Numbered from the stretch's first letter, positions 29,948 through 48,318 are shown. The stretch: 56,170 nucleotides of DNA from Thermoproteota archaeon (GCA_027491415.1 JAOZFH010000035.1:1-56170); one strand, 5' to 3'. The notes: a model not told the origin generated them from the letters alone. Translations and numbers: made by a program.

Positions 29948-30303
29948 CCCACTCCATCCATCGACCCGCCGCCCCCTCACGAGCGGCGGCCCACGCCCGG
30001 CCGTCCGTCCCTCAGTCGATCTCCGGGTGACGTTGGCCGAACATAGTTTGCGACCCGGTCTCGCCGCCAGGGTGCGTGCACGTCTTGCGCTTTCCAGGCC
30101 TACCCAAGCCTGAGAAGGCCCCTCTCACGGCCCCCCGCGTCGCTCGGGGGGTTCCAGTGACGAGGGCCGAGGCCGAGACCGGGAGGTCCACCGCTCGCGG
30201 GTTCGCGGAGGCCGGAGCTTAGACGTAGACTAGGGAGGGCTAGAGGGGGTCAAGAGAGAGCCCCCGATCTCGGCGTCTCCTTAGGGGACGGGTTCCTGCC
30301 CGC

Positions 30304-31494: not shown

Positions 31495-31660
31495 CCAGGC
31501 CCCCTCCCGGTGGCCCCGCCGGGGAGATCAGCGGGCATCCAGCCCGCGCCGCGCGGCCGACCGAGGGCTCCCGAGGCGGCCCTCCAGCTGCGGGGCAGCT
31601 GGTTCGGCTTGCCCCCAACTCGACTTAATTATCCCCCCGACAGCCGTCGGCTGAGGCGGG

Positions 31661-34600: not shown

Positions 34601-34990
34601 GACCTCAACCCCGAGGCGCGGCGCCTCACGGGAACCGAGCCTCCCTCCACGGTGATAGCCCTGGGAGGCCCCCAGGTCTATCCCGGAGTGTGGAAGGGAT
34701 CGGAGGTCGAGTTCCTGAGGGACGGTGGGACCTATCACGCCCTCAGATACCCCAACGGCACGCTGGAGTCCTCCTTCGGCTCGGAGGACTACGCAGTCGT
34801 GTGGGTGAGCAGGTGCGGCGGGATCACGCTGGTCAGGGTGGCGGGGGTGACGAGGTACGGCACCCGGGCCGCCCTCCTCTGGCTGCTGAGCCGCGGCGAG
34901 GCGGACGGGGAGTACACGGTGCTCAGGTGGGTGGACGACGGGGACGGCGCGGTTGAACTCACGGAGGTCGAGGTCGTGGCCTCCTGGTAG
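31661..34990 (+). CDS. Secreted protein with two GHL10-like TIM-barrel glycoside hydrolase domains, a trimerisation-like domain and a C-terminal S-layer-like domain
   Basis: Repeated EAHRLGLRVYAW/EAHKRGLRVAVY and FDGVDVND/ADAVWLD motifs; KVAVLFSR...GVQFDVL; ALGGPQV...VAGVTRYGTRAA. Confidence 0.7.
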   Translation: MRVQSLPLLALLLFSTLAAGGGPPPAIHQGAGGPELGVYEPCPSPGDCDVRAGLRRIVEAGGNAVLVTVVDGEGALYPSRVLPMANYADPGYVSSVVREAHRLGLRVYAWVNIPHEHWLRDHPDWIAVLSDGRPADFYDDDYFHRIVSPARLVREPECVSTLRALFMEIASLGFDGVDVNDNFQFSDQYIESQDVSLLTSYDEFTVRAFEEDTGIHVPGSGPREWASFLESDEDAWRAWVRWRARQVTRLIEIIAGAVHEVDPNLPVRPHLLIWDPLATYGLDYAALAEATGTGTLYVMVPSEEPRAWHVRAVTQARRAGARVVVASTYLYGISYSDDPVGEARRRGMWLAEAGADAVYVHWFGDAEDLSLWDAVRAVFRGFVEVKSAVERFRWLYGARAVSLWMGPGEAAEADVASVVGRLAGQGVSLIELDVGLSSYSLMYDDRGFEEALRVVREVADEAHKRGLRVAVYLPALEVVSDATAGRTFGVEHGGWVQRALDGTPLLATGRELGVVWVGPNEEDAWVSPASPHRWVIADRARRLVEEGGADAVWLDVPHMPSYLTEGLSDLWPDASEWGARSFGELYWDDPPSEPDWDDPAFREWLAWRHEVTLDFVLEVAEAVYEAGGVLMVETSANDASGNELGFDPTLLRWCPVVALVPEIGPPAWGEQARADVRVWSDYLAMLKHARSCTPGRPVLPLTYGVNPADAARQLALVLASADGFFETNFDGYMTGSVGPEFRERAFRLVSLLSGPRMSEAKVAVLFSRASRDYVDGYVNDIYDVSGTTHMAAFRGAVEALVRAGVQFDVLPVEELRPGELDGYEVVIAPQVRCLGEGARRALLKYGGTLLVIGELGSMNELGGPAEPLEVGVKVTVGDLSDLLAEYASDVEAPGGVVVEEFSIPGCRLAAVVATAGAGGGEFRVPGGSWVLSLDSWSAWPSGGAEPTPDSAALVILEASPGGGNLDLGRALAWAPSAVDSDLNPEARRLTGTEPPSTVIALGGPQVYPGVWKGSEVEFLRDGGTYHALRYPNGTLESSFGSEDYAVVWVSRCGGITLVRVAGVTRYGTRAALLWLLSRGEADGEYTVLRWVDDGDGAVELTEVEVVASW

Positions 34991-35044
34991 TCGTCCGGGA
35001 CATCCCGGGGCCGCCGGGGGCGCGCCTCGGGGCCACCCGAACGC

Positions 35045-35566
35045 TCAGCCGCGGGGCTCGGATCTCGGTATCAGGTTCTTGAAGAGGCAGGGGACGTCGG
35101 GGACGAGGCCCCTCACCCGACTGGCATACTCTTCGTACTCCCTCCCGAACTTCCGCCTGACCTCCGGCTCCTCCACCAGGTGGACGAATGCCACCACCCC
35201 GAGCACCTGGACGGTGGTCGCGACGATTATGTGCGAGAGGGAATCCAGGGCGAGGGCCAGCCCGACCGAGAGAACCGCCAGGCCGAGGTGGTTCGGGTGC
35301 CTCACGCAAGAGTATATTCCCACGGTGACGAGTCGATCGATCTGGCCGAACCCGCCGGGGCGCGACTTCCCGTACAGCCTCAGGTGCCTCCCGGCCGAGG
35401 CGCTGAGCGCGAACGCCAGGCCGATCAGGAGGAAACCGAGCACCCTTGAGGGGAGACCCAGGAGGCCTCCCCAGTTCATCCTGGCCGAGACTGCGAGCCC
35501 GAAGCCGTAGAGAGCCAGCCAGTAGGCGAGCTTCCAGGCCTGAGATCTCACGCGATCGACCTCCAT
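35045..35566 (-). CDS. Isoprenylcysteine carboxyl methyltransferase/PEMT family membrane protein
   Basis: LVTVGIYSCVRHPNH, EE...FGREYEEYASRV. Confidence 0.85.
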   Translation of the reverse strand: MEVDRVRSQAWKLAYWLALYGFGLAVSARMNWGGLLGLPSRVLGFLLIGLAFALSASAGRHLRLYGKSRPGGFGQIDRLVTVGIYSCVRHPNHLGLAVLSVGLALALDSLSHIIVATTVQVLGVVAFVHLVEEPEVRRKFGREYEEYASRVRGLVPDVPCLFKNLIPRSEPRG

Positions 35567-35630
35567 CCTCGGAACCGGACGGGGCGCGGACTCAACCGGA
35601 TCGGCCCGGGTTGAGCCAGAACCCCCCGGG

Positions 35631-36152
35631 TCACGGGTAAGCGCGGATGGCCCTGCTGCCCTCGGGCCCGAAGATCTCAACTATAAACCTCTCCGATGGG
35701 TCCTGGACGCCTGACGGCACGTAGACCACCCATATCTCGCCAGGTTCCAGCCTCGGATCCGCTGAGCAGTCCCAGGGCAGCCCCTTGCAGTCCAGGTAGC
35801 ACGGCGACAGCGTGTAGGTGCCCGTGGAGTTCCTGAGCACCAGGGCCCAGTCCTGCTCCCACCTGTACTCCTCTATCGGCTCATCTCCAACGTTCTTTAT
35901 GGCAACGGATAAGGCCTCCGCCCCCCTGCAGGAGGCGGGAACCCAGGGGTAGTCAGGGACCGTGTCCCTCGGGTTCACCGAGACTATCTCCAGCTGGTAC
36001 TTGACGTGGCTCCTGACCACCACTCGGTGGACGGCGCCCGTTATGACATGCCCCACCGGGCTGAATAGGAGCAGGGAGACGGCTACGGCTATGACCAGCA
36101 GGACGACCTCCGCGGCGACTCTCGATATTCCGGCTCCGCCGTTCATTTTCAT
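35631..36152 (-). CDS. Archaeal type IV pilin-like protein
   Basis: Class III-like signal G|ISRVAAEVVLLVIAVAV; IKNVGD and LEPGE motifs. Confidence 0.7.
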   Translation of the reverse strand: MKMNGGAGISRVAAEVVLLVIAVAVSLLLFSPVGHVITGAVHRVVVRSHVKYQLEIVSVNPRDTVPDYPWVPASCRGAEALSVAIKNVGDEPIEEYRWEQDWALVLRNSTGTYTLSPCYLDCKGLPWDCSADPRLEPGEIWVVYVPSGVQDPSERFIVEIFGPEGSRAIRAYP

Positions 36153-38464: not shown

Positions 38465-39949
38465 ATGGGGGTCAGGGTAGTCGTCGTGGGCGCCGGAGTC
38501 GTGGGCGCCAGCGTGGCCAGGGTGCTCAGCAGGTACGAGGGGCTGGAGGTCCACCTCATCGACACCAACCCCGACGTGGGCTGGGGAGTGAGCAAGGCCA
38601 ACACCGGCATAGTGCACGGCGGCTACGACGACGACCCCGATCGCTTCCCGCTCAGGGCGGAGCTCTGCGCGCTGGGGAACGAAATCTGGCACAGGTGGGT
38701 CGAGGAGCTCGACATCCCACACGCCTGGAGCGGGGCGCTTGTGGTCGCCCTGGAGGGCGATCAGAGAGGGGAGCTGGAGTCGCTCCTGGAGAGGGGCAGG
38801 AGGAACGGCGTGCCGGAGCTGAGGATAGTCGAGCGAGAGGAGGCCCTGGCCCTGGAGCCCAACCTGACCCCAGACGTCGAGGCGGCGCTCTGGGCCCCCA
38901 CAGTGGGACAGATCCACCCCGTGCGGGCAACGGTGGCCATCGTGGAGAACGCCGTGGACAACGGGGTCAGGGTCCACCTGGAGACCGAGATCAGGGGCGT
39001 CAAGGTGAAGGGAGGGGAGGTCAGGGGGTTGGAGACATCCCGCGGATTCCTGGAGGCAGACATCGTGGTCAACGCCGCGGGCCTCAGGGCCGACGAGCTT
39101 GCGGACATGGCCGGAGTTGAGTTCCCGAGGATCAGGCCCAGGAGGGGAGAGTACTGGATATTCGACCGCTCCGCCGGGCCCAAGCCGAGGCGAGTCCTGT
39201 TCCCCACTCCCACGCTGACCAGCAAGGGGGTAGTCGTGACGACGGAGGTGAGCGGGCACCTCATGATAGGCCCGAACGCCGAGGACCTTCCGCCAGACGC
39301 CAAGGACGACGTGGGGAACACAGCGAAGGGGTTGGAGGAGGTCTGGGAGAGGGCCAGGGAGCTCTGGCCCAGGCTACCGTCCAGGAGGCTGGTCATAAGG
39401 ACCTTCGCCGGGCTGAGGCCTGAGCCGGAGGGCGGAGACTTCGTGATTGGGACCACCGAGGTCTGGGGGTTCGTGAACGCTGCGGGAACCAGGTCACCAG
39501 GCCTCACGGCGGCCCCGGCCATCGCCCTGAGGGTGAGGGACGCGCTGGTTGAGCTCGGGATCGAGCTCAGGGAGAAGAGTAGGTGGAAGGCCACAAGGAG
39601 GGACATCGAGTCCACCATCGACCTGAGCTGGCGGGAGAGGGCGTCTAGGGCCCGCGAGGACCCGTTCAGGGGCAGGGTGGTCTGCAGGTGCAACCTCGTC
39701 ACCGAGCGGGAGGTGCTGGAGGCCATCGAGAGGATGCGGGCTGTGGGCGTGAGAACCCCGAGCCTCGACTCGGTGAAGTTCAGGACCGGGGCGACCTCAG
39801 GCACCTGCCAGGGGAGCTTCTGCAGGGTCAGGCTCGTCGAGATCCTAGCCAGGGAGTTCGGCGTTCCCCTGTGGGGTGTTACGCTGAAGGGGAGGGGGAG
39901 CGAGGTGGGCGTCGGTGACGTGAAGGTCCTCCTCAGGGGGCGAGCATAG
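38465..39949 (+). CDS. FAD-dependent glycerol-3-phosphate dehydrogenase-like oxidoreductase with BFD-like [2Fe-2S] domain
   Basis: VVGAGVVG, SKANTGIVHGG, FAGLRP, SPGLTAAPA, VCRC...GTCQGSFC. Confidence 0.85.
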   Translation: MGVRVVVVGAGVVGASVARVLSRYEGLEVHLIDTNPDVGWGVSKANTGIVHGGYDDDPDRFPLRAELCALGNEIWHRWVEELDIPHAWSGALVVALEGDQRGELESLLERGRRNGVPELRIVEREEALALEPNLTPDVEAALWAPTVGQIHPVRATVAIVENAVDNGVRVHLETEIRGVKVKGGEVRGLETSRGFLEADIVVNAAGLRADELADMAGVEFPRIRPRRGEYWIFDRSAGPKPRRVLFPTPTLTSKGVVVTTEVSGHLMIGPNAEDLPPDAKDDVGNTAKGLEEVWERARELWPRLPSRRLVIRTFAGLRPEPEGGDFVIGTTEVWGFVNAAGTRSPGLTAAPAIALRVRDALVELGIELREKSRWKATRRDIESTIDLSWRERASRAREDPFRGRVVCRCNLVTEREVLEAIERMRAVGVRTPSLDSVKFRTGATSGTCQGSFCRVRLVEILAREFGVPLWGVTLKGRGSEVGVGDVKVLLRGRA

Positions 39950-39952
39950 GGG

Positions 39953-41230
39953 GTGAGGGGAGTGGGGACTAGGGTCGAGGGGCGCAGGGACGTCGTGGTC
40001 GTCGGGGGCGGGCCGGCCGGGATGGCCGCCGCTGCCAGGGCCGCCGAGCTGGGTCTCGACGTGTTGATGGTGGACGAGGGAGAGAGGCTCGGCGGCATAC
40101 TGCCGCAGTGCATCCACCCAGGGTTCGGCGTCCACTACCTGAGAGAGGAGCTCACCGGGCCCGAGTTCGCCCAAAGGCTGGCATCGCGCGTGGAGGACGC
40201 TGGCGTTGACGTACTGCTGGAGGCCCACGTGCCGGAGGTCAGGTGGATCTCCCACGCGGAGAAGGGCGTGCGCGTGCTCTCCCCCGGCTTCTCGGGGGAG
40301 GTGAGGGCCGGGGCGGTGATCTACGCCGCCGGGGCCAGAGAGAGGCACCGCTTCGAAATCGGGATCCTTGGGGACAGGGTGGCCGGGGTCTACACGGCCG
40401 GAGAGGCCCAGACGATGATGGACGTGTACGGTATCCTGCCGGGAAGGAGGGTGCTCGTCGTCGGCTCCGGCGACGTGGGGATGATCGTGGCAAGGAGGTT
40501 CGCCCTGGAGGGGGCCGAGGTGGTGGGAGTCGTCGAGATAATGCCCTACCCTGGCGGGCTCACGAGGAATGTGGTCCAGTGCCTAGAGGACTTCGACATA
40601 CCCCTCCTGCTGAGCCACAGGGTCGTCTCGGTCAGGGGGAGAGGGAGGGTGGAGAAAGCTGTCCTGATGAGAGTTGACGAGGGGCTGAGAGACATCCCCG
40701 GGACCGAGACGGAGGTGGAGTGCGACACGGTGGTCGTGTCGGCCGGGCTGGTACCGAGGGTGGAGGTCCTGCGAGAGCTGGGGGCGCTGATCGATCCAGC
40801 GACGGGAGGCCCGGTGGTCAACGACAGGCTGGAGACTACCGTCCCCGGCGTCTTCGCCGCAGGGAACGCCCTCGTGATAAACGATCTGGTGGATCACGCC
40901 GCCGAGCAGGGCGAGCAGGCCGCCGAGGGGGCGGCCGAGTTCCTGAGGAGAGGAGGAATCCCTGCGACCGACTGGGTGAGGCTGAGGCCGGGCGAGGGAG
41001 TCAAGCTGACGGTACCTCAACTCCTCAGCGGGGAGAGGGACGTCTGGATCTACTTGAGGGTCAACAGGCCCGTCAGGAACGCGAGACTAAGCCTCAGGGG
41101 AGCGGGCAGGGAGGTCAGGCTCCCGGTGGTCAGGCCGGCGGAAATGGTCAGGGTCAAGCTCATGGCCGGGGAGGTCAGGCGGGCTAAGGTCGGGGGCCGG
41201 GAGGTCGTGGCGGAGGTGTATAGAGGTTGA
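39953..41230 (+). CDS. NAD(P)/FAD-dependent oxidoreductase, partner of the GlpA-like subunit
   Basis: GGGPAG, LGGILPQCIHPGFG, GSGDVG and GVFAAGN motifs. Confidence 0.88.
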   Translation: MRGVGTRVEGRRDVVVVGGGPAGMAAAARAAELGLDVLMVDEGERLGGILPQCIHPGFGVHYLREELTGPEFAQRLASRVEDAGVDVLLEAHVPEVRWISHAEKGVRVLSPGFSGEVRAGAVIYAAGARERHRFEIGILGDRVAGVYTAGEAQTMMDVYGILPGRRVLVVGSGDVGMIVARRFALEGAEVVGVVEIMPYPGGLTRNVVQCLEDFDIPLLLSHRVVSVRGRGRVEKAVLMRVDEGLRDIPGTETEVECDTVVVSAGLVPRVEVLRELGALIDPATGGPVVNDRLETTVPGVFAAGNALVINDLVDHAAEQGEQAAEGAAEFLRRGGIPATDWVRLRPGEGVKLTVPQLLSGERDVWIYLRVNRPVRNARLSLRGAGREVRLPVVRPAEMVRVKLMAGEVRRAKVGGREVVAEVYRG

Positions 41231-41640
41231 CCGGTCGCGGGAAGGTCAGGAGGCTGACCTGCATCGTCTGTCCCCTGGGCTGCGAGATCGAGGTTCGGCT
41301 GGACCGCGGCCCGGGCGGAGATGTGAGGGTCCTCGAGGTCAGGGGGGCCACCTGCCCGAGGGGGAGGGAGTGGGCCGCTCAGGAGGTGACAGACCCCAGG
41401 AGGGTCGTGATCACCGTGGTGCCGGTGAGGGGCGGTGATCCGCCGACCGTGAGCGTGAAGACGGACAGGCCGATCCCCAAGTCCAGGATCCCGGAGTTCA
41501 TGAGGGCCCTGGCCGGGCTGGAGGTGGAGGCGCCCGTGAGGGTGGGTCAGGTCCTCGCCAAGGACGTGCTCGACCTGGCGAACGTGGTGGCGACCAGGGA
41601 GTCAAGATCGATGGGGAGGAGTTTCGGAGAGAGGCCGTGA
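41227..41640 (+). CDS. DUF1667 family small Fe-S protein
   Basis: TCIVCPLGC...GATCPRG...SVKTDRPIPK. Confidence 0.88.
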   Translation: MTGRGKVRRLTCIVCPLGCEIEVRLDRGPGGDVRVLEVRGATCPRGREWAAQEVTDPRRVVITVVPVRGGDPPTVSVKTDRPIPKSRIPEFMRALAGLEVEAPVRVGQVLAKDVLDLANVVATRESRSMGRSFGERP

Positions 41641-41830
41641 GGTCCCCTGCGGCCTACCACCTACCCTACCCCACGAACGGGGAACCGGGAGTATGGGGAT
41701 CACGATTCCCGATCTGAGGCAGAGGAAGTAGCCCCAGGCCGGATGGGCATCCGTGCTCGAGAGGCCCCCTCCCGCCCTATCCAGACAAGGGTGCAACGCG
41801 TCGGCGGTCTTCGGCGTCTCAGTGAGCACG

Positions 41831-41862
41831 TCAGTACGAACCTGCGAGAAACCGTGTTATCA
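41831..41862 (+). promoter_or_regulatory. Conserved upstream motif plus TATA-like box of precursor gene 1
   Basis: TCAGTACGAA begins 70 nt before ATG 41901; TGTTATCA at +24. Confidence 0.6.
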
Positions 41863-41900
41863 ACGGGCGAGGATCCCCGCGCAGGTCCGGGTGGTTGAGC

Positions 41901-42017
41901 ATGGCCGTACTCTCCGCGTTCTTCGGGCTCGGCGCGGAGGACCTCAGAGCCTCCGTGGCCGTCGCCTCCTGCTCGGCCTGCTGCCTGGCGGGCGGAGGGG
42001 GGACCCTCATCGCCTAG
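41901..42017 (+). CDS. RiPP precursor peptide 1 (38 aa; not in ORF track)
   Basis: MAVLSAFFGLGAEDLRASVAVASCSACCLAGGGGTLIA*; paralog of precursor 2; T-run after the stop. Confidence 0.85.
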   Translation: MAVLSAFFGLGAEDLRASVAVASCSACCLAGGGGTLIA

Positions 42018-42106
42018 GCCCCTCCACCTGCCACCTTTTTCTCGATAAATCCGGCTTCTTTCAGCCAATGGAGTAAGATTCGACCATTTATGGATATGTT
42101 ATCACC

Positions 42107-42138
42107 TCAGTACGAATCTACGGATCATGATTTTTACA
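42107..42138 (+). promoter_or_regulatory. Conserved upstream motif plus TATA-like box of precursor gene 2
   Basis: TCAGTACGAA begins 70 nt before ATG 42177; TTTTTACA at +24. Confidence 0.6.
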
Positions 42139-42176
42139 TCATACTGGCCGGAGCCTCAGCCCAAGGGGTGAGGTGT

Positions 42177-42296
42177 ATGGCGAGCGTCCTGGGCGAGTGG
42201 AGGGATGTGAGCGCCGCCGACATCGGCGACGGCGTGACGGCCTGGCCCTGCGCCTTCTGCTGCCTCCTGGCTGGAGGGGGCACCCTAATCACCTGA
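42177..42296 (+). CDS. RiPP precursor peptide 2 (39 aa)
   Basis: MASVLGEWRDVSAADIGDGVTAWPCAFCCLLAGGGTLIT*; strong SD GAGGTG; directly upstream of the rSAM gene. Confidence 0.88.
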   Translation: MASVLGEWRDVSAADIGDGVTAWPCAFCCLLAGGGTLIT

Positions 42297-42333
42297 GGGT
42301 CCCTCTCTCCTCATTTTTTGGGCGTGAGCGGGG

Positions 42334-43743
42334 GTGTTCGGCGTGTCTAGGCCGGTCCTGAAGCCGTTCGTCGGGATCAGGAGAGAGAATTTCGGGGTGA
42401 TCCTCTACAGAGGAGGCTCCGACCAGATTCAGGCGGTCCACCCAGTCGCCGCGTACGTGCTCACCCTCATGGACGGGAGGAGGACGCTGAGGGAGATCGC
42501 GGAGGCCTTGGCGAGGGAGCTCGGCAGGGGCGTCATGGACGCCATGGAGATAGTCGAGGTGGTTCTGGACAGATACGCGGACTACGTCGATCTCGAGGGC
42601 TCCCACGTCAAGGACCTTCCGAGCCCGGAGGAGCTGCTCGAAGGAGTACCGGCTGAGATCCCCCCGGAGGAGGCCCTCCTCGGCAGGCTCAGCGCTCCGA
42701 CGGGCTTCGGCTACATCGTGACCCACGCCTGCCCCAACAGGTGCAGGTACTGCTACGCCGCCGCCTGGAGGAGGACGAGGCTCGAGGACGACCTGGTCCC
42801 CCTGGACGTGATCCTCAGGACCGTGGACGAGGCGGCGGACGTGGGGGTCAAGACGATCCTCATGACCGGCGGGGAGCCCTTCATGAGGCCCGACCTGGTG
42901 GACATAGTCGAGCGGGGCCTGAAGAGGGACATCTTCGTCTACATACCAACCAAGTCGCTGATAACCGAGGAGAAGGCCAGGAGGCTCAGCGAGGCCGGCC
43001 TGGGCTGGATCCAGGTGAGCATAGACTCGCCAAATCCGGAGACCGAGGACTTCCTCGTGGGGCCCGGGGCCCACGCGAGGCTGACGACCACGGTCAGGAA
43101 CCTGGTCAGGCACGGAATCGACGTGAGGGTCAACTCCGTCGTCACCTCTTACAACGTCAGGGAGGTTCCGAGGCTGATCGAGTGGCTCTACGAGATGGGG
43201 GTCAGCAGGATCTCCCTCTCACCGTATCAGTCCCCACACGACGTGGTCGACGACGACCTCTTCCCCTCGGTGGGGGACTACGCCTGGCTGCTGGACAGGA
43301 TCGAGGAGCTGCCGAGGCACCTGAGGGACGCGCTCGACCCGGCCGGAATACGGGCGATAGAGAACGCCGTGAGGGTCAACAGAGACGAGCTGGAGGACGT
43401 GGAGGCCCTGAGGAAGTGCTCCGCGGGAAGGAGTTCCCTCGTAATACTGCCGGACGGCAGGGTCTCGTTCTGCGAGAGGGTGGCGCTGGACGAGAGGTTC
43501 GTCGTGGGAGACCTGAGGAGGCAGTCTCTCATGGATATATGGAGGTCGGAGAGGCTGGAGAGGCTGGTGTATCCACCGAGGGAGCTTTTCTCCGGCACGG
43601 CGTGCCACGACTGCCCCATCTTCGACGAGTGCACCAGGCTGGGGAAGAGGTGCTACGTGAGGGCCATGGACGCCTACGGGGAGCCCTTCGCCCCGGACCC
43701 GATATGCCCGGCCGCGCCGCGGGTGGAGGGCAGGTTCGTGTGA
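42334..43743 (+). CDS. PqqD/RRE-containing radical SAM/SPASM peptide maturase
   Basis: N-terminal VAAYVLTLMDGRRTLREIAEAL (PqqD-like); CPNRCRYC; TGGEP; SPASM CSAG...PDGRVSFC...CHDC...C...C...DPIC. Confidence 0.92.
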   Translation: MFGVSRPVLKPFVGIRRENFGVILYRGGSDQIQAVHPVAAYVLTLMDGRRTLREIAEALARELGRGVMDAMEIVEVVLDRYADYVDLEGSHVKDLPSPEELLEGVPAEIPPEEALLGRLSAPTGFGYIVTHACPNRCRYCYAAAWRRTRLEDDLVPLDVILRTVDEAADVGVKTILMTGGEPFMRPDLVDIVERGLKRDIFVYIPTKSLITEEKARRLSEAGLGWIQVSIDSPNPETEDFLVGPGAHARLTTTVRNLVRHGIDVRVNSVVTSYNVREVPRLIEWLYEMGVSRISLSPYQSPHDVVDDDLFPSVGDYAWLLDRIEELPRHLRDALDPAGIRAIENAVRVNRDELEDVEALRKCSAGRSSLVILPDGRVSFCERVALDERFVVGDLRRQSLMDIWRSERLERLVYPPRELFSGTACHDCPIFDECTRLGKRCYVRAMDAYGEPFAPDPICPAAPRVEGRFV

Positions 43744-44741
43744 CGGGGGTGGGCGAGGTGGCGTCGGGCGTCGCGCGCGACGCGGTGATCGCCGAGAACC
43801 TGGTCAAGTACTACGGAGACTTCAAGGCGCTCGACGGCGTCTCCCTGAGGGTCGAGAGGGGAGAGGTCGTGGCCCTGCTGGGCCCCAACGGGGCTGGGAA
43901 GACCACCACCATCGGCATACTCTGCGGCCTCATGTCCGCGGACGCCGGCAGGGCCTTCGTCCTAGGGGTGCCGTCGACCGACAAGGATGGGGTGAGCAGG
44001 CTGATCTCCTACGCCCCGCAGGAGACGGCCCTTGACTACCTGATGAGCGTGGAGGACAACCTGAAGTTCATCGGCTGGCTGAGGGGGCTGAGAGGCGGGC
44101 GGCTCAGGGAGCGAATCGAGTGGGCGCTGAGGGAGTTCGGCCTCCTCGAGAAGAGGAGAATCCCGGTCATAGCGCTCTCAGGTGGGCTGATGAGGAGGGT
44201 CCAGCTGGCCGGGGCCCTCATGCTGGAGCGCGAGGTGCTGGTGCTGGACGAGCCCACCCTCGGGCTTGACCCCATGGGCAAGATGACCGTCTGGCAGATG
44301 GTCAGGGAGAGGGCCAGGAGGGGGGCGGCCGTGCTGGTCGCCACCAACGACATGCACGAGGCCGAGGTGCTCGCGGACAGGATAGCCTTCCTCAACAGGG
44401 GCAGGATCGTCGCCTTCGACACGGCCGACAGGCTCAAGGCCCTGTCCGGTAGCTCCTACCTGAGGCTGCGGCTGGAGCCCGGCTGGGAAGACCTGGTCAG
44501 TGCGCCCCGGGGGGCGAGGGTCCTCGGGGACGGGTGGATCGAGGTCGAGTACCGCGAGCCGGGAGAGGTGGCCGAGATCGTGGCGTCGCTCTCCGGCGCG
44601 AGGATCCTCGACATGAGGCTGAGGGGGCCCACCCTGGACGACGTGTTCAGGAAGCTGGCGACCGAGTCGGAGACGGTTCCAGAGGGCGACGGGGCGGGCG
44701 TGAGAGTGGTGGCCGAGGTCGGGCCACCGGCCGGGGGGTGA
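43740..44741 (+). CDS. ABC exporter ATP-binding subunit
   Basis: GPNGAGKTT, LSGG, LDEPT and PTLDDVF motifs; GTG start overlaps the rSAM stop. Confidence 0.92.
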   Translation: MTGVGEVASGVARDAVIAENLVKYYGDFKALDGVSLRVERGEVVALLGPNGAGKTTTIGILCGLMSADAGRAFVLGVPSTDKDGVSRLISYAPQETALDYLMSVEDNLKFIGWLRGLRGGRLRERIEWALREFGLLEKRRIPVIALSGGLMRRVQLAGALMLEREVLVLDEPTLGLDPMGKMTVWQMVRERARRGAAVLVATNDMHEAEVLADRIAFLNRGRIVAFDTADRLKALSGSSYLRLRLEPGWEDLVSAPRGARVLGDGWIEVEYREPGEVAEIVASLSGARILDMRLRGPTLDDVFRKLATESETVPEGDGAGVRVVAEVGPPAGG

Positions 44742-44745
44742 TGCC

Positions 44746-45492
44746 GTGCTCGCGCCGCTGATCTGGAGGGAGTTCAAGATCCACTCCAGCAAGGCCCTGG
44801 CCCTGAACCACCTGCTCGGCCCCACCTCCTACCTGGTGTTCCTGGGGCTCAGCATATCCTTCAACTTCGGGACCGTGCCCTACCAAGGCATGGCGGTGAG
44901 CTACCTGCACTTCATAATCCCCGGGCTCATAGCGATCCAGACGTACCAGCTCTTCGCCACGACCTTCTCCCTCACCAGGCTGGACATCTCCACCAAGATG
45001 ATCACGCTGATCATGACCTCCACGAGCTTCGTGAACTACATGGTCGCGAAGATAGCCTTCGGCATGCTAGTCTCGCTCGCGACGTCCGCGTACCTCCTGG
45101 GGCTGGGCTGGGTCATCGCCGGCCCCACGGAGGTCACGCCGGCTGGACTCCTGACGATGGTCGCGGGGATAGCGCTGGGGGACTTGCTCTTCTTCTCACT
45201 CGGGCTGCTCATGGGCCTCAGGATAAGGAGGGAGGACGTGAGAGACGCCATCTTCGCCCTGGCGGGAACGCCGGCGCTCTTCTCCAGTACGGCCTTCTAC
45301 CCCATGGACAGGGTGCCGGCGCCCCTCCGGCTGGTGGCCAGGCTGAACCCCATATCCCACATAGCAGACATCGTGAGGGCTGGCTACCTGAACGCGAGCC
45401 CCGACCCGCTGACCTGCCTCCTGCTAGCGGCCTACGTGGCCGCCGCCGTGGGCGTTACGTACAGGGCCGTGAGGCGGTTCGTCGTCAGGTGA
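44746..45492 (+). CDS. ABC-2 type permease
   Basis: YLHFIIPG, FSSTAFYP and LNPISH motifs; 6 TMs. Confidence 0.9.
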   Translation: MLAPLIWREFKIHSSKALALNHLLGPTSYLVFLGLSISFNFGTVPYQGMAVSYLHFIIPGLIAIQTYQLFATTFSLTRLDISTKMITLIMTSTSFVNYMVAKIAFGMLVSLATSAYLLGLGWVIAGPTEVTPAGLLTMVAGIALGDLLFFSLGLLMGLRIRREDVRDAIFALAGTPALFSSTAFYPMDRVPAPLRLVARLNPISHIADIVRAGYLNASPDPLTCLLLAAYVAAAVGVTYRAVRRFVVR

Positions 45493-45521: not shown

Positions 45522-45539
45522 CAATCAATCGATTGATTG
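45522..45539. promoter_or_regulatory. Perfect 18-bp palindrome, probable operator
   Basis: CAATCAATCGATTGATTG immediately after the TTTTATT box at 45511. Confidence 0.65.
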
Positions 45540-46579
45540 TGCAGGGTGGGGACGACCTCAGGGACGCCGGGAGGATAGTGAGGCACCTGCTGTTCAACAG
45601 CCTCGATGTGGAGTCCCTGAGCATCCGGGGGATGGAGAGGGCGCTGGGCATACCCTTCTCCAGGCTCAGGCGACTGCTCAGGTGGCTCCAGAGTGAGGGA
45701 GTAGTCGTGGGATATCAGGTGGGCACCTCGATGGCCTTCAGGGTACTAGACCTCGAGAGGGCCGTTCACCTCGGCCTGGTGAGCCTGTCCACGGAGGACC
45801 TGGAGAGGGCCGTGTACGGCTCCATGGCGCTGCCGGCCTCGGTCAGGGGCATGGTGCGCGACGACCTCACCCTCAAGTTCCTGCCAGCGTCCAGCGACCT
45901 GCCGGGGCCCTACCTCGCGGCGATAGGGGACCTGAGGAGGAGGTGGGACCTCCTCTACCAGGCGGCCAGGAGGGCCTTCACGGGCGGGGACGGGGAGAGG
46001 GTGGGGCAGACGGGTCGAAGGGGGGCCGACGGCATGGAGGCCAGCCTGAGGCTCCTGGGGAGGGATTTCGTGTCCAAGGCGGGCCTCATCCCCCTCCTGT
46101 ACCTCGTGGCCGTCAGGCAGCTCAAGGTCCCTGTGGAGGTTGAGCTCGACGAGGACGACATAGAGGGCATGCTGCACAGGCTCAGGGTCGAGGCCGGCGT
46201 CGGGGAGGACGAGGTGAGGCTCCTGAGGTACTTTCCCTCCCTGGACCCCATAGCCCTGTTCGCGAGGGACGTGGTCATGGAGCTCGGGGTTCCCGAGGAG
46301 GTGAGCGAGGAGGAGCTCAGGCGGGCTGTCTCCAGGGTGGCGGAGAAGTACCTCCGCCTCCTGCTGAAGTTCTCCCGCGGGAGGCACCCGTCCAGGGAGG
46401 CCCGGCTCGTGGAGGCGCTTACCCTCAGGCACGGGGCCCTGTTCGGCATACTGACCGGGGCCCCGGCGGATCTCGTGAGTGAGTGCCTCTCCAGGGCGAG
46501 CGAGCTGGAGGAGGGGTCGAACTCAGGGGAGGGGAGGTTGAGGTCGTTGGGGAGGTGTGGGGATGCTCGAGCTGGCTGA
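45533..46579 (+). CDS. Hypothetical protein with N-terminal winged HTH (start uncertain)
   Basis: LSIRGMERALGIPFSRLRRLLRWLQSEGVV. Confidence 0.65.
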   Translation: MIVQGGDDLRDAGRIVRHLLFNSLDVESLSIRGMERALGIPFSRLRRLLRWLQSEGVVVGYQVGTSMAFRVLDLERAVHLGLVSLSTEDLERAVYGSMALPASVRGMVRDDLTLKFLPASSDLPGPYLAAIGDLRRRWDLLYQAARRAFTGGDGERVGQTGRRGADGMEASLRLLGRDFVSKAGLIPLLYLVAVRQLKVPVEVELDEDDIEGMLHRLRVEAGVGEDEVRLLRYFPSLDPIALFARDVVMELGVPEEVSEEELRRAVSRVAEKYLRLLLKFSRGRHPSREARLVEALTLRHGALFGILTGAPADLVSECLSRASELEEGSNSGEGRLRSLGRCGDARAG

Positions 46580-46901
46580 GCCCCCCGTCGCGGATGCTGA
46601 GGCCGTGTTCTCCCTCAGGAGGAGTAGGGTAAGGAGGGAGGTCCTCTCCTTCCTGGCCAGGATACACCCGAGGGCCTCCTACCCCAGCGAGATAGCCAGG
46701 GCGATAAACGCCAGGGCTGACCAGGTCCTCGCGGCGCTGAGGGGCTACGGGACCAGGTACAGGAGGGACATATCCCTCCTCGGGCTCGGACTCGTGAGGG
46801 AGGTCGGGAGGGGACCCAAGCTCACCCTCTACGCCGCCACCGAGAAGGGGGTCAGGGTGGTCGCCTACCTGAACATGGTCGAGTACAACCTCTCCCAGTG
46901 A
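46557..46901 (+). CDS. EarA/DUF1495-like winged-HTH transcription factor
   Basis: SLRRSRVRREVL...YPSEIAR...ALRGYGTRY...SLLGLGLV...TEKG. Confidence 0.75.
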   Translation: MGMLELAEPPVADAEAVFSLRRSRVRREVLSFLARIHPRASYPSEIARAINARADQVLAALRGYGTRYRRDISLLGLGLVREVGRGPKLTLYAATEKGVRVVAYLNMVEYNLSQ

Positions 46902-47181
46902 GAACCGCCCGAAAGGGCCGACGAAGTACATCCAGCATCCACACACGGCACAGTTCTTCCCCCCTCGGCTTCCCGCCGCCGTCCTGGGGCTGATGTGGCC
47001 CTCCGCCCAGCCGCGTGCGCCTCACCGCGCGGCCCCCGGGTTACCTGCGGGCCACGAGCTCAGGGGGGGTCGGTGGGGGGCCGGGCCAGGATCTCAAGGG
47101 GGCCCGAGGGGAGCGGGAGGCAGCGGCGCCGCCCTTATAACAGGGGGGCGGGAGGGCGTCGCCTGTCACCGGTCTCGGGAG

Positions 47182-48318
47182 ATGGCGTGGATGATGGTTG
47201 GCCTGAAGGAGCTCCTCCTCGGCGCGGCTTCGGCGCTCGTCCTCGTTGGGGTGCTCGCCTGCTCGCTGCTGTGCATCCCGTGGCACCTGCTGCCGGACTC
47301 TGGGGCCTTGCCCGCCGTTCTGGGCCTGGCGGCAGCCCTCGGCGCGGCCGCCGCGGGGAGGGCCCGCGGCGGGGTCAGGGTGGCCGCCTGGCTGGCGGCG
47401 GTCACCCTGGCCGCGCTCTCACTCGCCGCGGTCGGCTCGACGCTCGGGTTCAGGGTGGTCCCGAACTCGCCGTACGCGTCCGCAACCCTCGCGGACGTGC
47501 CCTGCGACAGTCCCCTGATCTTGAACGTGACGGCGGTCCCGTTCCACGTCAACGTCCAGCCCTGGGGTGGTGAGGGCGTGTCTGTGGTGATCGAGGCCCC
47601 CTCAAACCTGGTCGAGGAGGTGGAGAGGAGTGTTACCATCTCGCACGCCGTTGATCCGTCCGACGGCATCCTCCACCTGCGGATCCAGAGCGAGTACAGG
47701 AGGCCCATCGCGATCGGGTGGCTCGCCCTCTCCCCGCCCGAGCTGACGCTCAGGGTGATGGTTCCTTGGGCTGGCGGCTGCAGGGTGCTGCGGGCGTACA
47801 TATACACCGTGAGCGGAGACGTGGCCGTGCGTGTGGACGTCGATCTGTTATCCGTCCAGAGCGTCCACGGGAGCCTGAACCTCTCGGGGGATTTCGGGGT
47901 CCTGGAGGCCGAGACCGTCAGCGGCGGCGTCTTCCTGAGCGGAGGGGTGCTGCGCGGCGGGACCGTGAGGTCGACCAGCGGCGACGTGAGGGGGGAGGTC
48001 CTGGCCGCCGCAGGGGCCCTCGGCTCAGCGGGCGCAGGCGGCACCCTCTACCTGAGTACGACGAGCGGGGACATAGAGGTCGAGATCTCGAGGGAAGAGG
48101 ACGTCCACCTGGAGATCTACGCCAGCACGACGAGCGGGCGCGCGACCCTGATGGAGGACGGTGGCGGCTCGGGAGGCGGCCTCGACGTCGCGGTCATCTC
48201 CGAGGGTGAGGTCAGGGGGAGCGTCGGGCCCCCCGGGGGACGAGAGTTCAGGCTCGTGGCCGAGACAACCAGCGGCGACGTAACCATAAGGTACGCCGGG
48301 GTCTGGCGGGCCGGGTAG
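47182..48318 (+). CDS. Membrane protein with DUF4097 beta-strand repeats
   Basis: TMs followed by repeated TVSGDV/TVSGGV/STSGDV/TTSGDI. Confidence 0.8.
   Translation: MAWMMVGLKELLLGAASALVLVGVLACSLLCIPWHLLPDSGALPAVLGLAAALGAAAAGRARGGVRVAAWLAAVTLAALSLAAVGSTLGFRVVPNSPYASATLADVPCDSPLILNVTAVPFHVNVQPWGGEGVSVVIEAPSNLVEEVERSVTISHAVDPSDGILHLRIQSEYRRPIAIGWLALSPPELTLRVMVPWAGGCRVLRAYIYTVSGDVAVRVDVDLLSVQSVHGSLNLSGDFGVLEAETVSGGVFLSGGVLRGGTVRSTSGDVRGEVLAAAGALGSAGAGGTLYLSTTSGDIEVEISREEDVHLEIYASTTSGRATLMEDGGGSGGGLDVAVISEGEVRGSVGPPGGREFRLVAETTSGDVTIRYAGVWRAG

What the first reader, a model, noticed from the sequence alone, without database searches (positions are those of the whole stretch)
41901..45492. Probable new archaeal RiPP cluster: twin CxxCC precursors + RRE-radical SAM/SPASM maturase + ABC exporter
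Seen: two short ORFs, followed on the same strand by a radical SAM gene with a PqqD/RRE-like N-terminus, CxxxCxxC and a Cys-rich SPASM domain. An ABC ATPase overlaps its stop and an ABC-2 permease follows. Established: RRE-rSAM-SPASM enzymes (AlbA, CteB, PqqE classes) crosslink small precursor peptides, often by Cys-to-carbon thioethers. Inference: this makes a secreted sactipeptide- or ranthipeptide-like product in a thermophilic archaeon, where characterised RiPPs are rare. I do not recognise the core motif from any known family. No protease is visible in the cluster, so leader removal would be in trans or absent.
Basis: partly seen in the sequence, partly recalled or inferred. Interest (0 to 1): 0.95.

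Follow-up and report, generated by a model that had tools for sequence, protein, structure and literature searches.

The report
Archaeal radical-SAM modified-peptide gene cluster
Two tiny cysteine-bearing peptide genes sit in front of a peptide-modifying iron-sulfur enzyme, an export pump and two regulators in an uncultured archaeon; this looks like an undescribed kind of modified-peptide (RiPP) pathway, and its chemistry still has to be found at the bench.

Summary
Window 41901-45492 (+) carries two paralogous peptide genes of 38 and 39 aa. Their C-termini read C-x-x-C-C-L-x-x-G-G-G-T-L-I. They are followed by an RRE-like/radical SAM/SPASM enzyme (469 aa), then a translationally coupled ABC ATPase and an ABC-2 permease.

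A second genus of the same archaeal family has a 34%-identical enzyme, again preceded by a short peptide gene (..TDVCPVAC..KY..). Four bacterial plasmid loci of the wider enzyme clade also carry Cys-rich peptides upstream, and three of them (four peptides) share a "GL(K/S)" leader motif with the archaeal peptides.

Three points need correcting:
- Only C-x3-C is conserved, not CxxCC.
- The exporter type is not conserved (ABC-2 in one genus, MacB-type in the other).
- The conserved core also includes an orphan 348-aa winged-helix protein and an EarA-like regulator (45533-46901).

The enzyme belongs to a large clade (365 representatives at E<1e-30). None of the 100 representatives scanned fits a named NCBIfam family. 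Its closest solved structures are the RiPP maturases SuiB, CteB and SkfB.

Thioether formation on the conserved cysteines is the most likely chemistry but is untested. I rate it a new variant of a known kind, moderately interesting, not 0.95.

The parts
41822..41846 (+). Conserved upstream element of peptide gene A (core TCAGTACGAA), about 55-79 nt before the ATG and just upstream of a T/A-rich TATA-like stretch. Candidate activator or operator site.
   Evidence: It is a 25-nt direct repeat with 42098-42122; the 276-nt spacing equals the spacing of the two ATGs. TCAGTAC-AA is invariant in 6 of 6 upstream regions (3 species x 2 paralogs; two of the species are near-identical). The 17-nt pattern gives 3 matches in the window against 0.22 expected, and 0 of 100 shuffles reach 3.
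41901..42017 (+). Precursor peptide gene A (38 aa + stop): a leader with GL-x-x-ED(L/I) and a core C-S-A-C-C-L-A-G-G-G-G-T-L-I-A.
   Evidence: It is conserved in G004 (1 aa change) and in G001, with the same length, start and stop. Profile hit E 9.7e-18. No Pfam or NCBIfam family.
41986..42040 (+). Hairpin (arms 41986-42000 and 42019-42033) followed by T5 (42036-42040) at the end of gene A. Terminator- or attenuator-like.
   Evidence: Inverted repeat I2, 15 nt, 87% complementary. The T-run is read. G001 also has a T-run after its gene A.
42098..42122 (+). Conserved upstream element of peptide gene B (second copy of the TCAGTACGAA element), followed by the TATA-like stretch GATTTTTAC.
42177..42296 (+). 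Precursor peptide gene B (39 aa + stop), paralog of A (42% identity): core P-C-A-F-C-C-L-L-A-G-G-G-T-L-I-T.
   Evidence: The SD GGTGAGGTG plus ATG is conserved in G004 and G001. Identical protein in G004 with 3 synonymous changes. Profile hit E 1.6e-18.
42294..42319 (+). Terminator-like stem-loop plus T6 between peptide B and the enzyme gene. Possible read-through attenuator that sets the precursor:enzyme ratio.
   Evidence: 3 overlapping terminator-like sites, all at this one spot, against a shuffle mean of 1.1.
42334..43743 (+). RRE-like / radical SAM / SPASM peptide maturase (469 aa).
   Evidence: Pfam. Invariant CX3CX2C and 7 SPASM Cys. AF2 model: beta-beta-beta-alpha-alpha-alpha at residues 13-80, then a TIM-like core. 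Foldseek top hits: SuiB E 3.9e-18, CteB 1e-15, SkfB 1.6e-15, PqqE 3.2e-15. No NCBIfam cut-off reached.
43740..44741 (+). ABC transporter ATPase (DrrA-like). Its GTG start overlaps the enzyme's stop codon.
   Evidence: ABC_tran E 5.9e-28. TIGR01188 drrA 227.7 bits, below the 312.45 cut-off. Overlap read.
44746..45492 (+). ABC-2 type permease (248 aa).
   Evidence: ABC2_membrane E 2.6e-9 and ABC2_membrane_3 E 6.8e-9.
45533..46579 (+). Orphan 348-aa protein: N-terminal winged helix-turn-helix plus a long all-helical C-terminal region. Its presence tracks the enzyme ortholog.
   Evidence: No Pfam or NCBIfam family. Only genus-level relatives in the 5.8-billion-protein search. Found with strong matches in 7 of 40 class genomes. 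Six of the seven also show a full or fragmentary enzyme ortholog at E<=1e-40; the seventh, G018, shows only an enzyme N-terminal fragment on the same contig. AF2 is confident only for wHTH residues 6-80. Weak HTH_IclR, HTH_24 and TrmB hits in genus-2 members.
46557..46901 (+). EarA-like winged-helix regulator (114 aa). It overlaps the end of the 348-aa gene by 23 nt; the same pair is conserved in genus 2.
   Evidence: PF07381 E 1.7e-22. The genus-2 counterparts overlap the wHTH gene end: E 4.6e-24 and 1.6e-24.

Best explanation
This is a ribosomal modified-peptide (RiPP) pathway.

Proposed mechanism:
- The two small genes encode precursors with an N-terminal leader (helix, then GL-x-x-[DE]-[LI]) and a C-terminal core built around C-x3-C.
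- The enzyme's N-terminal RRE-like domain docks the leader.
- Its radical SAM cluster makes a 5'-deoxyadenosyl radical that abstracts an H atom from the core. The two SPASM auxiliary clusters help form a cross-link, most probably Cys-S-to-carbon thioethers from the conserved cysteines. I put about 0.45 on thioether within this reading; other rSAM chemistry is possible.
- The product is handed to the translationally coupled ABC-2 pump for export or self-protection.
- Each peptide gene has its own promoter with a conserved TCAGTACGAA element, and an oligo-T or hairpin site after it. Precursors can therefore be made in excess over the enzyme.
- The conserved wHTH-348/EarA-like pair probably controls these promoters.

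Shown: gene order, domains, conservation, and co-occurrence of the genes. Inferred: binding, the chemistry, export, and regulation.
For: Domains and catalytic cysteines.

Fold: the closest solved structures are RRE-containing RiPP maturases (SuiB, CteB, SkfB), aligned over the whole length (473 columns). The N-terminal beta3-alpha3 topology is seen. The PqqD profile hits 6 of 17 family members at E<=0.01.

Peptide genes are conserved upstream of the enzyme:
- In 3 of 3 genus-1 genomes where that DNA is assembled (G000, G004, G001).
- In 3 of 3 genus-2 genomes where it is assembled (G005, G009, G018).
- TDVCPVAC is identical in the three genus-2 species.
- G005 versus G009 differ at codon positions 1/2/3 by 10/6/25, with 14 synonymous and 15 non-synonymous codon changes.

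Bacterial relatives: Cys-rich peptide genes lie directly upstream of clade members on Paenibacillus, Mesorhizobium and two Rhizobium plasmids. The Aminobacter plasmid hit was not opened. In the 10-peptide alignment (the R. etli peptide left out), GL is present in 9 of 10 and two Cys are invariant.

A peptide profile hits only these two loci in the genome.

Predicted enzyme-peptide B complex: weak support. Score 0.37 against a best control of 0.01. That mark was reached by 58 of 80 solved complexes and 2 of 110 mismatched pairs. At 0.60 or under, only 7 of those 80 solved complexes reached it, and so did both mismatches that passed. The runs agree in at least 66% of contacts and the partner pLDDT is at least 57. 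Solved RRE-leader complexes exist, so the pass may reflect likeness.

Coupled ABC genes. A different ABC exporter lies near the genus-2 cluster.
Against: - No chemistry, no protein and no RNA evidence.
- The PqqD Pfam score is below its gathering cut-off (22.8 vs 23.4), and N-terminal-domain pLDDT is only 55-85.
- The complex prediction is weak by the tool's own calibration.
- Peptide A compared between G000 and G001 shows no third-position bias (11/12/13; 7 synonymous vs 17 non-synonymous codons). Coding there rests on the conserved frame, length, start, stop and C-terminal motif.
- The high G+C content makes spurious ORFs common.
- The number of cysteines and everything after C-x3-C differ between genera, so the modified residues may differ.
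- There is no protease in the cluster.
- In G004 the enzyme gene has a 1-nt deletion in the SPASM region. That is either a pseudogene or an assembly error.
- The exporter in genus 2 is convergent and of another type, so its link to the pathway is not established.
- Only 4 bacterial loci out of hundreds of clade members could be inspected. The R. etli locus sits on a long branch.
Confidence: 0.75

Rival explanations
1. It is a peptide-derived redox cofactor pathway, like mycofactocin or PQQ. The small peptide would be a sacrificial precursor that the rSAM/SPASM enzyme processes into a cofactor for the FAD oxidoreductases encoded just upstream.
For: The best-scoring NCBIfam models are MftC (103.1 bits) and PqqE (94.8 bits). 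PqqE is among the best sequence and structure matches. A DAO/BFD oxidoreductase, a Pyr_redox_2 protein and a DUF1667 protein lie directly upstream on the same strand.
Against: Those scores are far below the family cut-offs (265 and 381) and are no better than scores for heme or MoaA-type enzymes. The oxidoreductase trio is not next to the genus-2 cluster. ABC exporters accompany the cluster in both genera. The peptides lack the C-terminal Val-Tyr of MftA and the Glu/Tyr pair of PqqA; those two motifs are recalled, not taken from a call. No MftB/D/E or PqqB/C-type genes were seen.
Confidence: 0.07
2. The short ORFs are not substrates. They would be untranslated or regulatory, and the enzyme would modify another peptide or protein, or a non-peptide substrate.
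For: There is no expression evidence. Spurious ORFs are common at 65% G+C. Peptide A's leader evolves fast without a codon-position bias. Many SPASM enzymes act on non-RiPP substrates (the heme and sulfatase families appear).
Against: The peptide genes keep frame, length, start, SD and C-terminal motif across species. In genus 2 there is a clear third-position bias. Analogous Cys-rich ORFs precede relatives in bacteria. An RRE-like domain is present. The peptide profile is unique to this locus.
Confidence: 0.08
3. It is a true RiPP pathway, but the chemistry is not a thioether. Candidates are C-C or C-O cross-links, epimerisation, or conversion of Cys to another residue, with the conserved cysteines playing a structural, metal-binding or disulfide role.
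For: The top structural neighbour, SuiB, makes a Lys-Trp C-C bond. No thioether-maturase family cut-off is approached (StsB 93.6 vs 625; AlbA, PapB and SCIFF models are not among the best 25). Genus-2 cores carry a conserved Lys-Tyr after the cysteines.
Against: The only residues of the core that are invariant across genera and domains are cysteines. Cys-rich cores paired with RRE-rSAM-SPASM enzymes have so far mostly meant thioethers; this is established knowledge of sacti- and ranthipeptides and was recalled, not tested here.
Confidence: 0.25

Closest known systems
CteB / thermocellin and the SCIFF-type ranthipeptide maturases
   Same: The three-domain build is the same: RRE, radical SAM, SPASM with two auxiliary clusters. 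The precursor is short, directly upstream and co-oriented, with a Cys-bearing C-terminal core. The CteB structure (5wgg) is a top fold match (E 1e-15).
   Different: Sequence identity in the structural alignment is about 18%. The SCIFF maturase and PapB models are not among the best 25 NCBIfam hits, and no cut-off is approached. The peptides match no SCIFF or other precursor model. The core has only 2-3 Cys. The conserved wHTH-348/EarA partners are not known, as far as I recall, from ranthipeptide clusters.
SuiB / streptide (RaS-RiPPs of streptococci)
   Same: It is the best structural match over the full length, including the leader-binding domain (E 3.9e-18, 473 aligned columns). Both are small operons of precursor, rSAM enzyme and transporter with a dedicated regulator.
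   Different: SuiB links Lys to Trp, and the cores here lack that pair. Identity is 17-18%. The regulators are unrelated (Rgg/SHP there, recalled; a wHTH orphan plus EarA-like here).
AlbA / subtilosin A and other sactipeptide systems (SkfB, StsB)
   Same: Cys donors lie in the N-terminal part of the core and possible acceptor residues lie C-terminal to them. An ABC-2-type transporter is encoded in the cluster. SkfB (6efn) is a top fold match.
   Different: StsB model 93.6 bits against a 625 cut-off. No dedicated protease is present. The S-C(alpha) linkage is not testable here.
MftC / mycofactocin and PqqE / PQQ
   Same: They are the highest-scoring NCBIfam models and PqqE gives PDB sequence hits. 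In both, an rSAM-SPASM enzyme acts on a small peptide through a PqqD-like domain.
   Different: Scores are 103 vs 265 and 95 vs 381. Accessory genes are absent, exporters are present, and the precursor motif is different.
Unnamed bacterial members of the same rSAM clade (Paenibacillus peoriae NZ_CP011513; Mesorhizobium NZ_AP023260; Rhizobium NZ_CP121654)
   Same: The enzymes are 25-32% identical over at least 73% of the length, including the N-terminal domain in two of the three records. Upstream peptides show a helix-GL(K/S) leader and Cys-rich C-termini.
   Different: Cores are longer and richer in Cys. A second rSAM (TIGR04463-like, 221 bits vs 525) is present in the rhizobial loci. No wHTH-348/EarA pair is present. 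All are annotated only as 'radical SAM protein' or 'hypothetical protein'.

Membership tests
Radical SAM superfamily (PF04055) | CX3CX2C motif for the SAM-binding [4Fe-4S] cluster, with a profile match | tested here: met
   C133, C137 and C140 are invariant in 9 and in 17 relatives. PF04055 96.5 bits against a 29.5 cut-off.
SPASM-domain radical SAM enzymes (PF13186) | C-terminal seven-cysteine motif for two auxiliary Fe-S clusters | tested here: met
   C362, C380, C424, C427, C433, C440 and C458 are invariant in 17 relatives. PF13186 49.3 bits against 21.5. The spacing here is CX2CX5CX6C; the usual CX2CX5CX3C is recalled, not taken from a call.
RRE (PqqD-like) leader-recognition domain | N-terminal three-stranded sheet plus three helices (winged helix) matching PqqD/RRE profiles | tested here: inconclusive
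   PF05402 22.8 bits against a 23.4 cut-off. 6 of 17 clade members hit at E<=0.01. The AF2 model shows strands 13-18, 21-26 and 32-35 and helices 37-45, 52-63 and 67-80, at pLDDT 55-85. Full-length Foldseek alignments to SuiB and CteB. Fold-level support is good, but the profile threshold is just missed.
RiPP biosynthetic cluster (generic) | A short precursor gene next to the modifying enzyme, conserved with it across lineages | tested here: met
   Genus 1. Genus 2. Bacterial plasmids. Alignment.
Sactipeptides | Cys sulfur to alpha-carbon thioether in the mature peptide | not testable with these tools
   This needs MS/NMR of the product. Enzyme equivalogs are not met: StsB 93.6 bits vs 625, and AlbA is not in the best 25.
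Ranthipeptides / SCIFF | Membership of the maturase in TIGR03974 or the PapB family, and of the precursor in the SCIFF family; S-C(beta/gamma) link | tested here: not met
   Neither maturase model is among the best 25 of 69 NCBIfam hits (the 25th scores 54 bits; the cut-offs of 425 and 340 are as shown). The peptides hit 0 families. The linkage itself is not testable.
Mycofactocin system | MftC equivalog score | tested here: not met
   TIGR03962 103.1 bits against a 265 cut-off. The peptides end in TLIA or TLIT, not Val-Tyr (the MftA motif is recalled).
PQQ system | PqqE equivalog score | tested here: not met
   TIGR02109 94.8 bits against 381.35.
ABC-2 (DrrAB-type) exporter | ABC_tran ATPase plus ABC2_membrane permease; DrrA/DrrB subfamily scores | tested here: inconclusive
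   The Pfam domains are met (98.6 and 37.4 bits). The DrrA and DrrB subfamily scores are below cut-off (227.7 vs 312.45; 46.7 vs 223.05).
EarA-like regulators (PF07381) | Profile match above the gathering score | tested here: met
   79.5 bits against 22. Genus-2 counterparts 84.5 and 86 bits. DNA binding was not tested.

The most novel reading that the evidence does not exclude
The cluster is an archaeal peptide-signalling (quorum-sensing-like) circuit. The rSAM-modified peptide would be exported and then sensed by the conserved orphan protein, whose wHTH plus roughly 270-aa helical domain is loosely reminiscent of Rgg/PlcR-type peptide receptors. Together with the EarA-like activator it would switch on the twin peptide promoters through the conserved TCAGTACGAA element. 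This would be the first peptide pheromone system described in Archaea, run by a new class of cross-linked peptide.
Probability: 0.1. Interest if true: 0.85.

Novelty: new variant of a known kind. Interest (0 to 1): 0.58.

Why it matters
Few archaeal RiPPs have been characterised. [quoted passage not shown] Another calls ranthipeptides 'only recently reported in archaea' (PMC13635244, passages). I found no paper linking Korarchaeota/Korarchaeia to such a pathway.

This locus offers a compact, testable system of two 38-39-aa substrates and one enzyme. The enzyme comes from a clade with hundreds of unnamed members in both domains, so solving one product would annotate them all.

The conserved pairing with an orphan winged-helix protein and an EarA-like activator, together with duplicated promoter elements, also gives a handle on how an archaeon regulates a secondary-metabolite-like pathway.

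Tried and rejected
Context of the closest non-korarchaeal relatives (P0008-P0012, 35-42% identical to the window enzyme) could not be obtained.
- The one genome-contig scan used window-specific patterns and returned only 2 close loci plus 12 generic rSAM genes.
- The one metagenome scan used the generic CxxxCxxC pattern. Its 80 loci are all at most 31% identical and mostly lack the N-terminal domain (checked by tblastn).

A sample of 401 archaeal genomes gave no clade member outside the two genera at E<=1e-45 (7 of 401). This means not found in those searched, not absent.

The 348-aa protein:
- AF2 with 7 sequences gave pLDDT 51.5, so I ran no fold search on it.
- ESM Atlas scores were at most 0.83, giving HTH-level leads only.
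- The Mesorhizobium 351-aa 'HTH' protein of similar size turned out to be an IS481-type transposase, so it is not a homolog.

Expression: no RNA holder was listed for 41850-43750.

Rfam: only two sub-threshold miRNA-family matches in 41500-42450. I rejected an RNA-gene reading.

The sigma-70 promoter scan found 0 sites and is not relevant to archaea.

A possible AGTACG similarity between the genus-1 upstream element and the genus-2 intergenic region was too short to count.

The maximum-likelihood tree did not finish in time. The FastTree version places both genera in one 12-row subclade (SH-like support 93) that also holds a long-branch row. I use it only as a rough guide.

Supplementary Data 1 of PMC12144867, an antiSMASH survey of archaeal genomes, might list this or a sister MAG's cluster, and I could not see it.

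Full report
WHAT IS THERE

On the + strand of the window I find the following features.

(i) Peptide gene A, 41901-42017 (38 aa).

(ii) Peptide gene B. Its conserved start is ATG 42177, giving 39 aa, with stop codon at 42294-42296.

(iii) A 469-aa enzyme at 42334-43743 with Radical_SAM (E 2.5e-27) and SPASM (E 6.3e-13) domains. A PqqD-like N-terminus scores 22.8 bits, just under Pfam's 23.4 cut-off.

(iv) An ABC ATPase whose GTG start at 43740 overlaps the enzyme's stop (GTGTGA).

(v) An ABC-2 permease at 44746-45492.

(vi) A 348-aa protein with no family, at 45533-46579.

(vii) An EarA-like protein at 46557-46901 that overlaps the previous gene by 23 nt.

The two peptides are paralogs (42% identity). 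They end in CSACCLAGGGGTLIA and CAFCCLLAGGGTLIT.

ARE THE SMALL ORFS REAL?

The genome is about 65% G+C, and the 9-kb neighbourhood alone has 81 ORFs of at least 25 aa. ORF presence therefore proves nothing, and conservation has to carry the argument.

- In a congener whose enzyme is 87% identical (G001), the surrounding DNA is only 67% identical. Peptide A nevertheless keeps its start, stop and 38-codon length, and ends in CATCCLVAGGGTLIA.
- That contig stops exactly at the conserved GGTGAGGTG-ATG of peptide B.
- In the near-identical G004, peptide B differs by 3 synonymous changes and 0 non-synonymous ones.
- A second genus of the same family (G005, G009, G018; a fourth genome, G012, is cut at the enzyme's start) has an enzyme 34% identical over its full length.
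- Immediately upstream of that enzyme is a 45-46-aa ORF ending in ..GLKL-x-D-..-TDVCPVAC(I/V)(I/V/L)(I/L)KY...
- Between G005 and G009 that ORF differs at codon positions 1/2/3 by 10/6/25, the signature of a translated gene.

Against this, peptide A compared between G000 and G001 shows no position bias (11/12/13; 7 synonymous vs 17 non-synonymous codons). Its leader evolves fast.

A profile built from the seven peptides finds only the two window genes in the whole 1.78-Mb assembly (E 1.6e-18 and 9.7e-18; next hit E 0.9).

Rfam finds nothing credible in the region.

WHAT IS CONSERVED AROUND IT

The 348-aa protein has no relatives beyond the genus in the 5.8-billion-protein search (3 hits).

A six-frame search of all 40 genomes of the class gives strong matches in seven genomes: G000, G004, G001 and G003 (genus 1), and G005, G009 and G018 (genus 2). 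There is also one marginal hit with two stop codons in G027.

The enzyme ortholog is found at E<=1e-40 in G000, G004, G001, G003, G005, G009 and G012 (7 of 43 phylum genomes). G018 holds only an N-terminal enzyme fragment, next to its copy of the 348-aa gene. G012's contig begins at the enzyme gene, so the 348-aa gene there would lie beyond the contig end. G002, of the same genus and 97% complete, shows neither gene. The two genes therefore travel together.

In genus 2 the 348-aa homolog is transcribed divergently from the peptide-enzyme pair. It is again followed, with overlap, by an EarA-like gene (PF07381, E 4.6e-24 and 1.6e-24). A MacB-type ABC system lies convergent just beyond: an FtsX/MacB_PCD permease, an ABC ATPase and a 731-783-aa protein with no family.

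The conserved core is thus peptide(s) + enzyme + wHTH-348 + EarA-like. An ABC exporter is nearby in both genera but is of a different type in each. The FAD-oxidoreductase/DUF1667 genes upstream in the window are not part of the conserved set.

THE ENZYME

C133-x3-C137-x2-C140, the GGEP motif and seven SPASM cysteines (C362, C380, C424, C427, C433, C440, C458) are invariant in 17 relatives.

The AlphaFold2 model (mean pLDDT 74) shows three strands and three helices at residues 13-80, a poorly predicted linker, the radical SAM barrel and the SPASM region.

Foldseek against the PDB ranks SuiB first (E 3.9e-18, 473 aligned columns). CteB (1e-15), SkfB (1.6e-15), PqqE (3.2e-15) and BlsE follow. The best full-length matches are thus RiPP maturases that carry a leader-recognition domain.

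By sequence, no NCBIfam model comes near its cut-off: MftC 103 vs 265, PqqE 95 vs 381, StsB 94 vs 625.

An exhaustive HMMER pass over 1.84 billion representatives gives 30,077 hits at E<=1e-3 and 365 at E<=1e-30. The best 150 are mostly 440-500 aa and align from about residue 10 to 460 at up to 42% identity.

I scanned 100 of those 150 (the rows I took as near full length) against NCBIfam. Only 2 match any family at E<=1e-40. The 10 closest all fall far below every cut-off, and their source names are generic.

This is therefore a sizeable clade that NCBIfam does not name.

A quick FastTree puts both korarchaeal genera in one 12-row subclade, with SH-like support 93. The subclade also holds a long-branch row, so this is a rough guide only.

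DO OTHER CLADE MEMBERS HAVE SUCH PEPTIDES?

Context could be read only for members that happen to lie on plasmids.

- Paenibacillus peoriae: two upstream ORFs carry ..GLSKR(Q/E)LL(K/R)EL.. leaders and Cys-rich ends (..CGQCEAGCINCQTGC.. and ..CTMGCSMRCTSCSPGC..). The enzyme there is split into two CDS.
- Mesorhizobium sp. and Rhizobium sp. CB3171: a 77-78-aa peptide reads ..KKKGLK(V/I)DL.. ..GCDSCTVCPCMICW. A second rSAM, TIGR04463-like, follows.
- R. etli, a distant and long-branch member: the annotated upstream ORF ends in ..PCCSPILCASVGG.
- A fifth plasmid hit (Aminobacter) was listed but not opened.

In a MAFFT alignment of 10 peptides from both domains (the R. etli peptide left out), the GL dipeptide after an amphipathic helix is present in 9 of 10, and two cysteines are invariant.

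This is a small sample: 4 bacterial loci, two of them near-identical. It points the same way as the archaeal data. The clade acts on peptides with a shared leader and Cys-bearing cores.

HOW IT PROBABLY WORKS

By analogy with the solved RRE-rSAM-SPASM maturases, the N-terminal domain binds the leader and the enzyme cross-links the core by radical chemistry.

The joint fold of the enzyme with peptide B gave weak support.
- The score was 0.37, and the best of 3 controls was 0.01.
- The mark was reached by 58 of 80 solved complexes and by 2 of 110 mismatches.
- At 0.60 or under, only 7 of those 80 solved complexes reached it, as did both mismatches that passed.
- The runs agree in at least 66% of contacts, and the partner pLDDT is at least 57.
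- Similar complexes are solved, so likeness may explain the pass.

The only core residues conserved across genera are the two cysteines spaced by three residues. I therefore favour Cys-to-carbon thioethers, with other chemistries open.

The coupled ABC-2 pump suggests export or self-protection.

REGULATION

Each peptide gene has its own copy of a 25-nt element, at 41822-41846 and 42098-42122. The 276-nt spacing equals the spacing of the ATGs. The core TCAGTAC-AA is invariant in all six upstream regions of three species, two of which are near-identical. The element sits just upstream of a T/A-rich TATA-like stretch.

The 17-nt pattern occurs 3 times in the window against 0.22 expected. The third match has 3 mismatches and lies elsewhere.

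Both peptide genes are followed by a stem plus T-run, and G001 also has a T-run after gene A.

EarA of Methanococcus is an activator that binds immediately upstream of the BRE/TATA (PMC5512572, abstract and passages). The cluster's EarA-like and wHTH-348 proteins are therefore plausible regulators of these promoters. This is inference only.

COMPARISON AND NOVELTY

The locus works like a sacti- or ranthipeptide-type cluster, but it fails every family-level membership test that could be run (see Membership tests). The defining linkages cannot be tested in silico.

I found no paper linking Korarchaeota or Korarchaeia with such a cluster.
- 393 papers hold at least 2 of the 3 terms, and the 15 listed have no 'korarchaeota'.
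- one paper, a genome catalogue.

The record titles call the organism a Thermoproteota MAG. The genome tool's phylum holds only 43 genomes, and one sister MAG carries the isolate name 'Kor2'. I read this as Korarchaeia, but I did not verify it, nor thermophily.

VERDICT

The details need correcting: the conserved motif is C-x3-C, the exporter is not conserved, two regulators belong to the conserved core, and the clade spans both domains.

It is a new variant of a known kind. It is a good bench target, but not the near-unique find that a score of 0.95 implies.

Noticed in passing
L002:2587-2668 (G004:C1), aligned to window 43420-43500: In the 96%-identical sister genome the enzyme gene has a single-base deletion (GGACGGCAGG becomes GGAC-GCAGG) inside the SPASM 'LPDGRV' region, which splits the frame at about codon 375. 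The same break is present in the NCBI record JAOZFN010000012.1 (L020). An intact 466-aa, 96%-identical protein (P0001) also exists. This is either a pseudogene or an assembly error.
   Followed up: partly
window 38465-41640 (+): Directly upstream of the cluster is a three-gene set: a DAO-type FAD oxidoreductase with a BFD-like [2Fe-2S] domain (494 aa), a Pyr_redox_2 flavoprotein (425 aa) and a DUF1667 protein (137 aa), with overlapping or abutting genes. It is not conserved next to the genus-2 cluster.
   Followed up: partly
window 46993-48318 (+): A 441-aa protein with a DUF4097 'toastrack' domain (E 1.6e-6) and an Ala/Gly/Leu-rich putative membrane segment follows the EarA-like gene. I did not see it in the genus-2 loci, where a 731-783-aa protein without a family and a MacB-type ABC system occupy the corresponding side.
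   Followed up: no
window 30001-36000: G+C rises to 0.68-0.71 here, against 0.63-0.66 in most of the window.
   Followed up: no
L132:7475-8776 and L134:6106-7467 (rhizobial plasmids): The bacterial clade members on Mesorhizobium and Rhizobium plasmids are followed by a second radical SAM/SPASM gene. The Mesorhizobium copy is nearest to the TIGR04463 'Cys-rich' RiPP maturase family (221.5 bits, cut-off 525). This suggests two-enzyme tailoring of the ..GCDSCTVCPCMICW peptide. All of these genes are annotated only as radical SAM or hypothetical proteins.
   Followed up: partly
L131:5812-7349 (Paenibacillus peoriae plasmid NZ_CP011513): The clade member there is annotated as two CDS ('radical SAM protein' and 'SPASM domain-containing protein') and reads as frame-shifted, yet it keeps two intact upstream precursor-like ORFs.
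   Followed up: no
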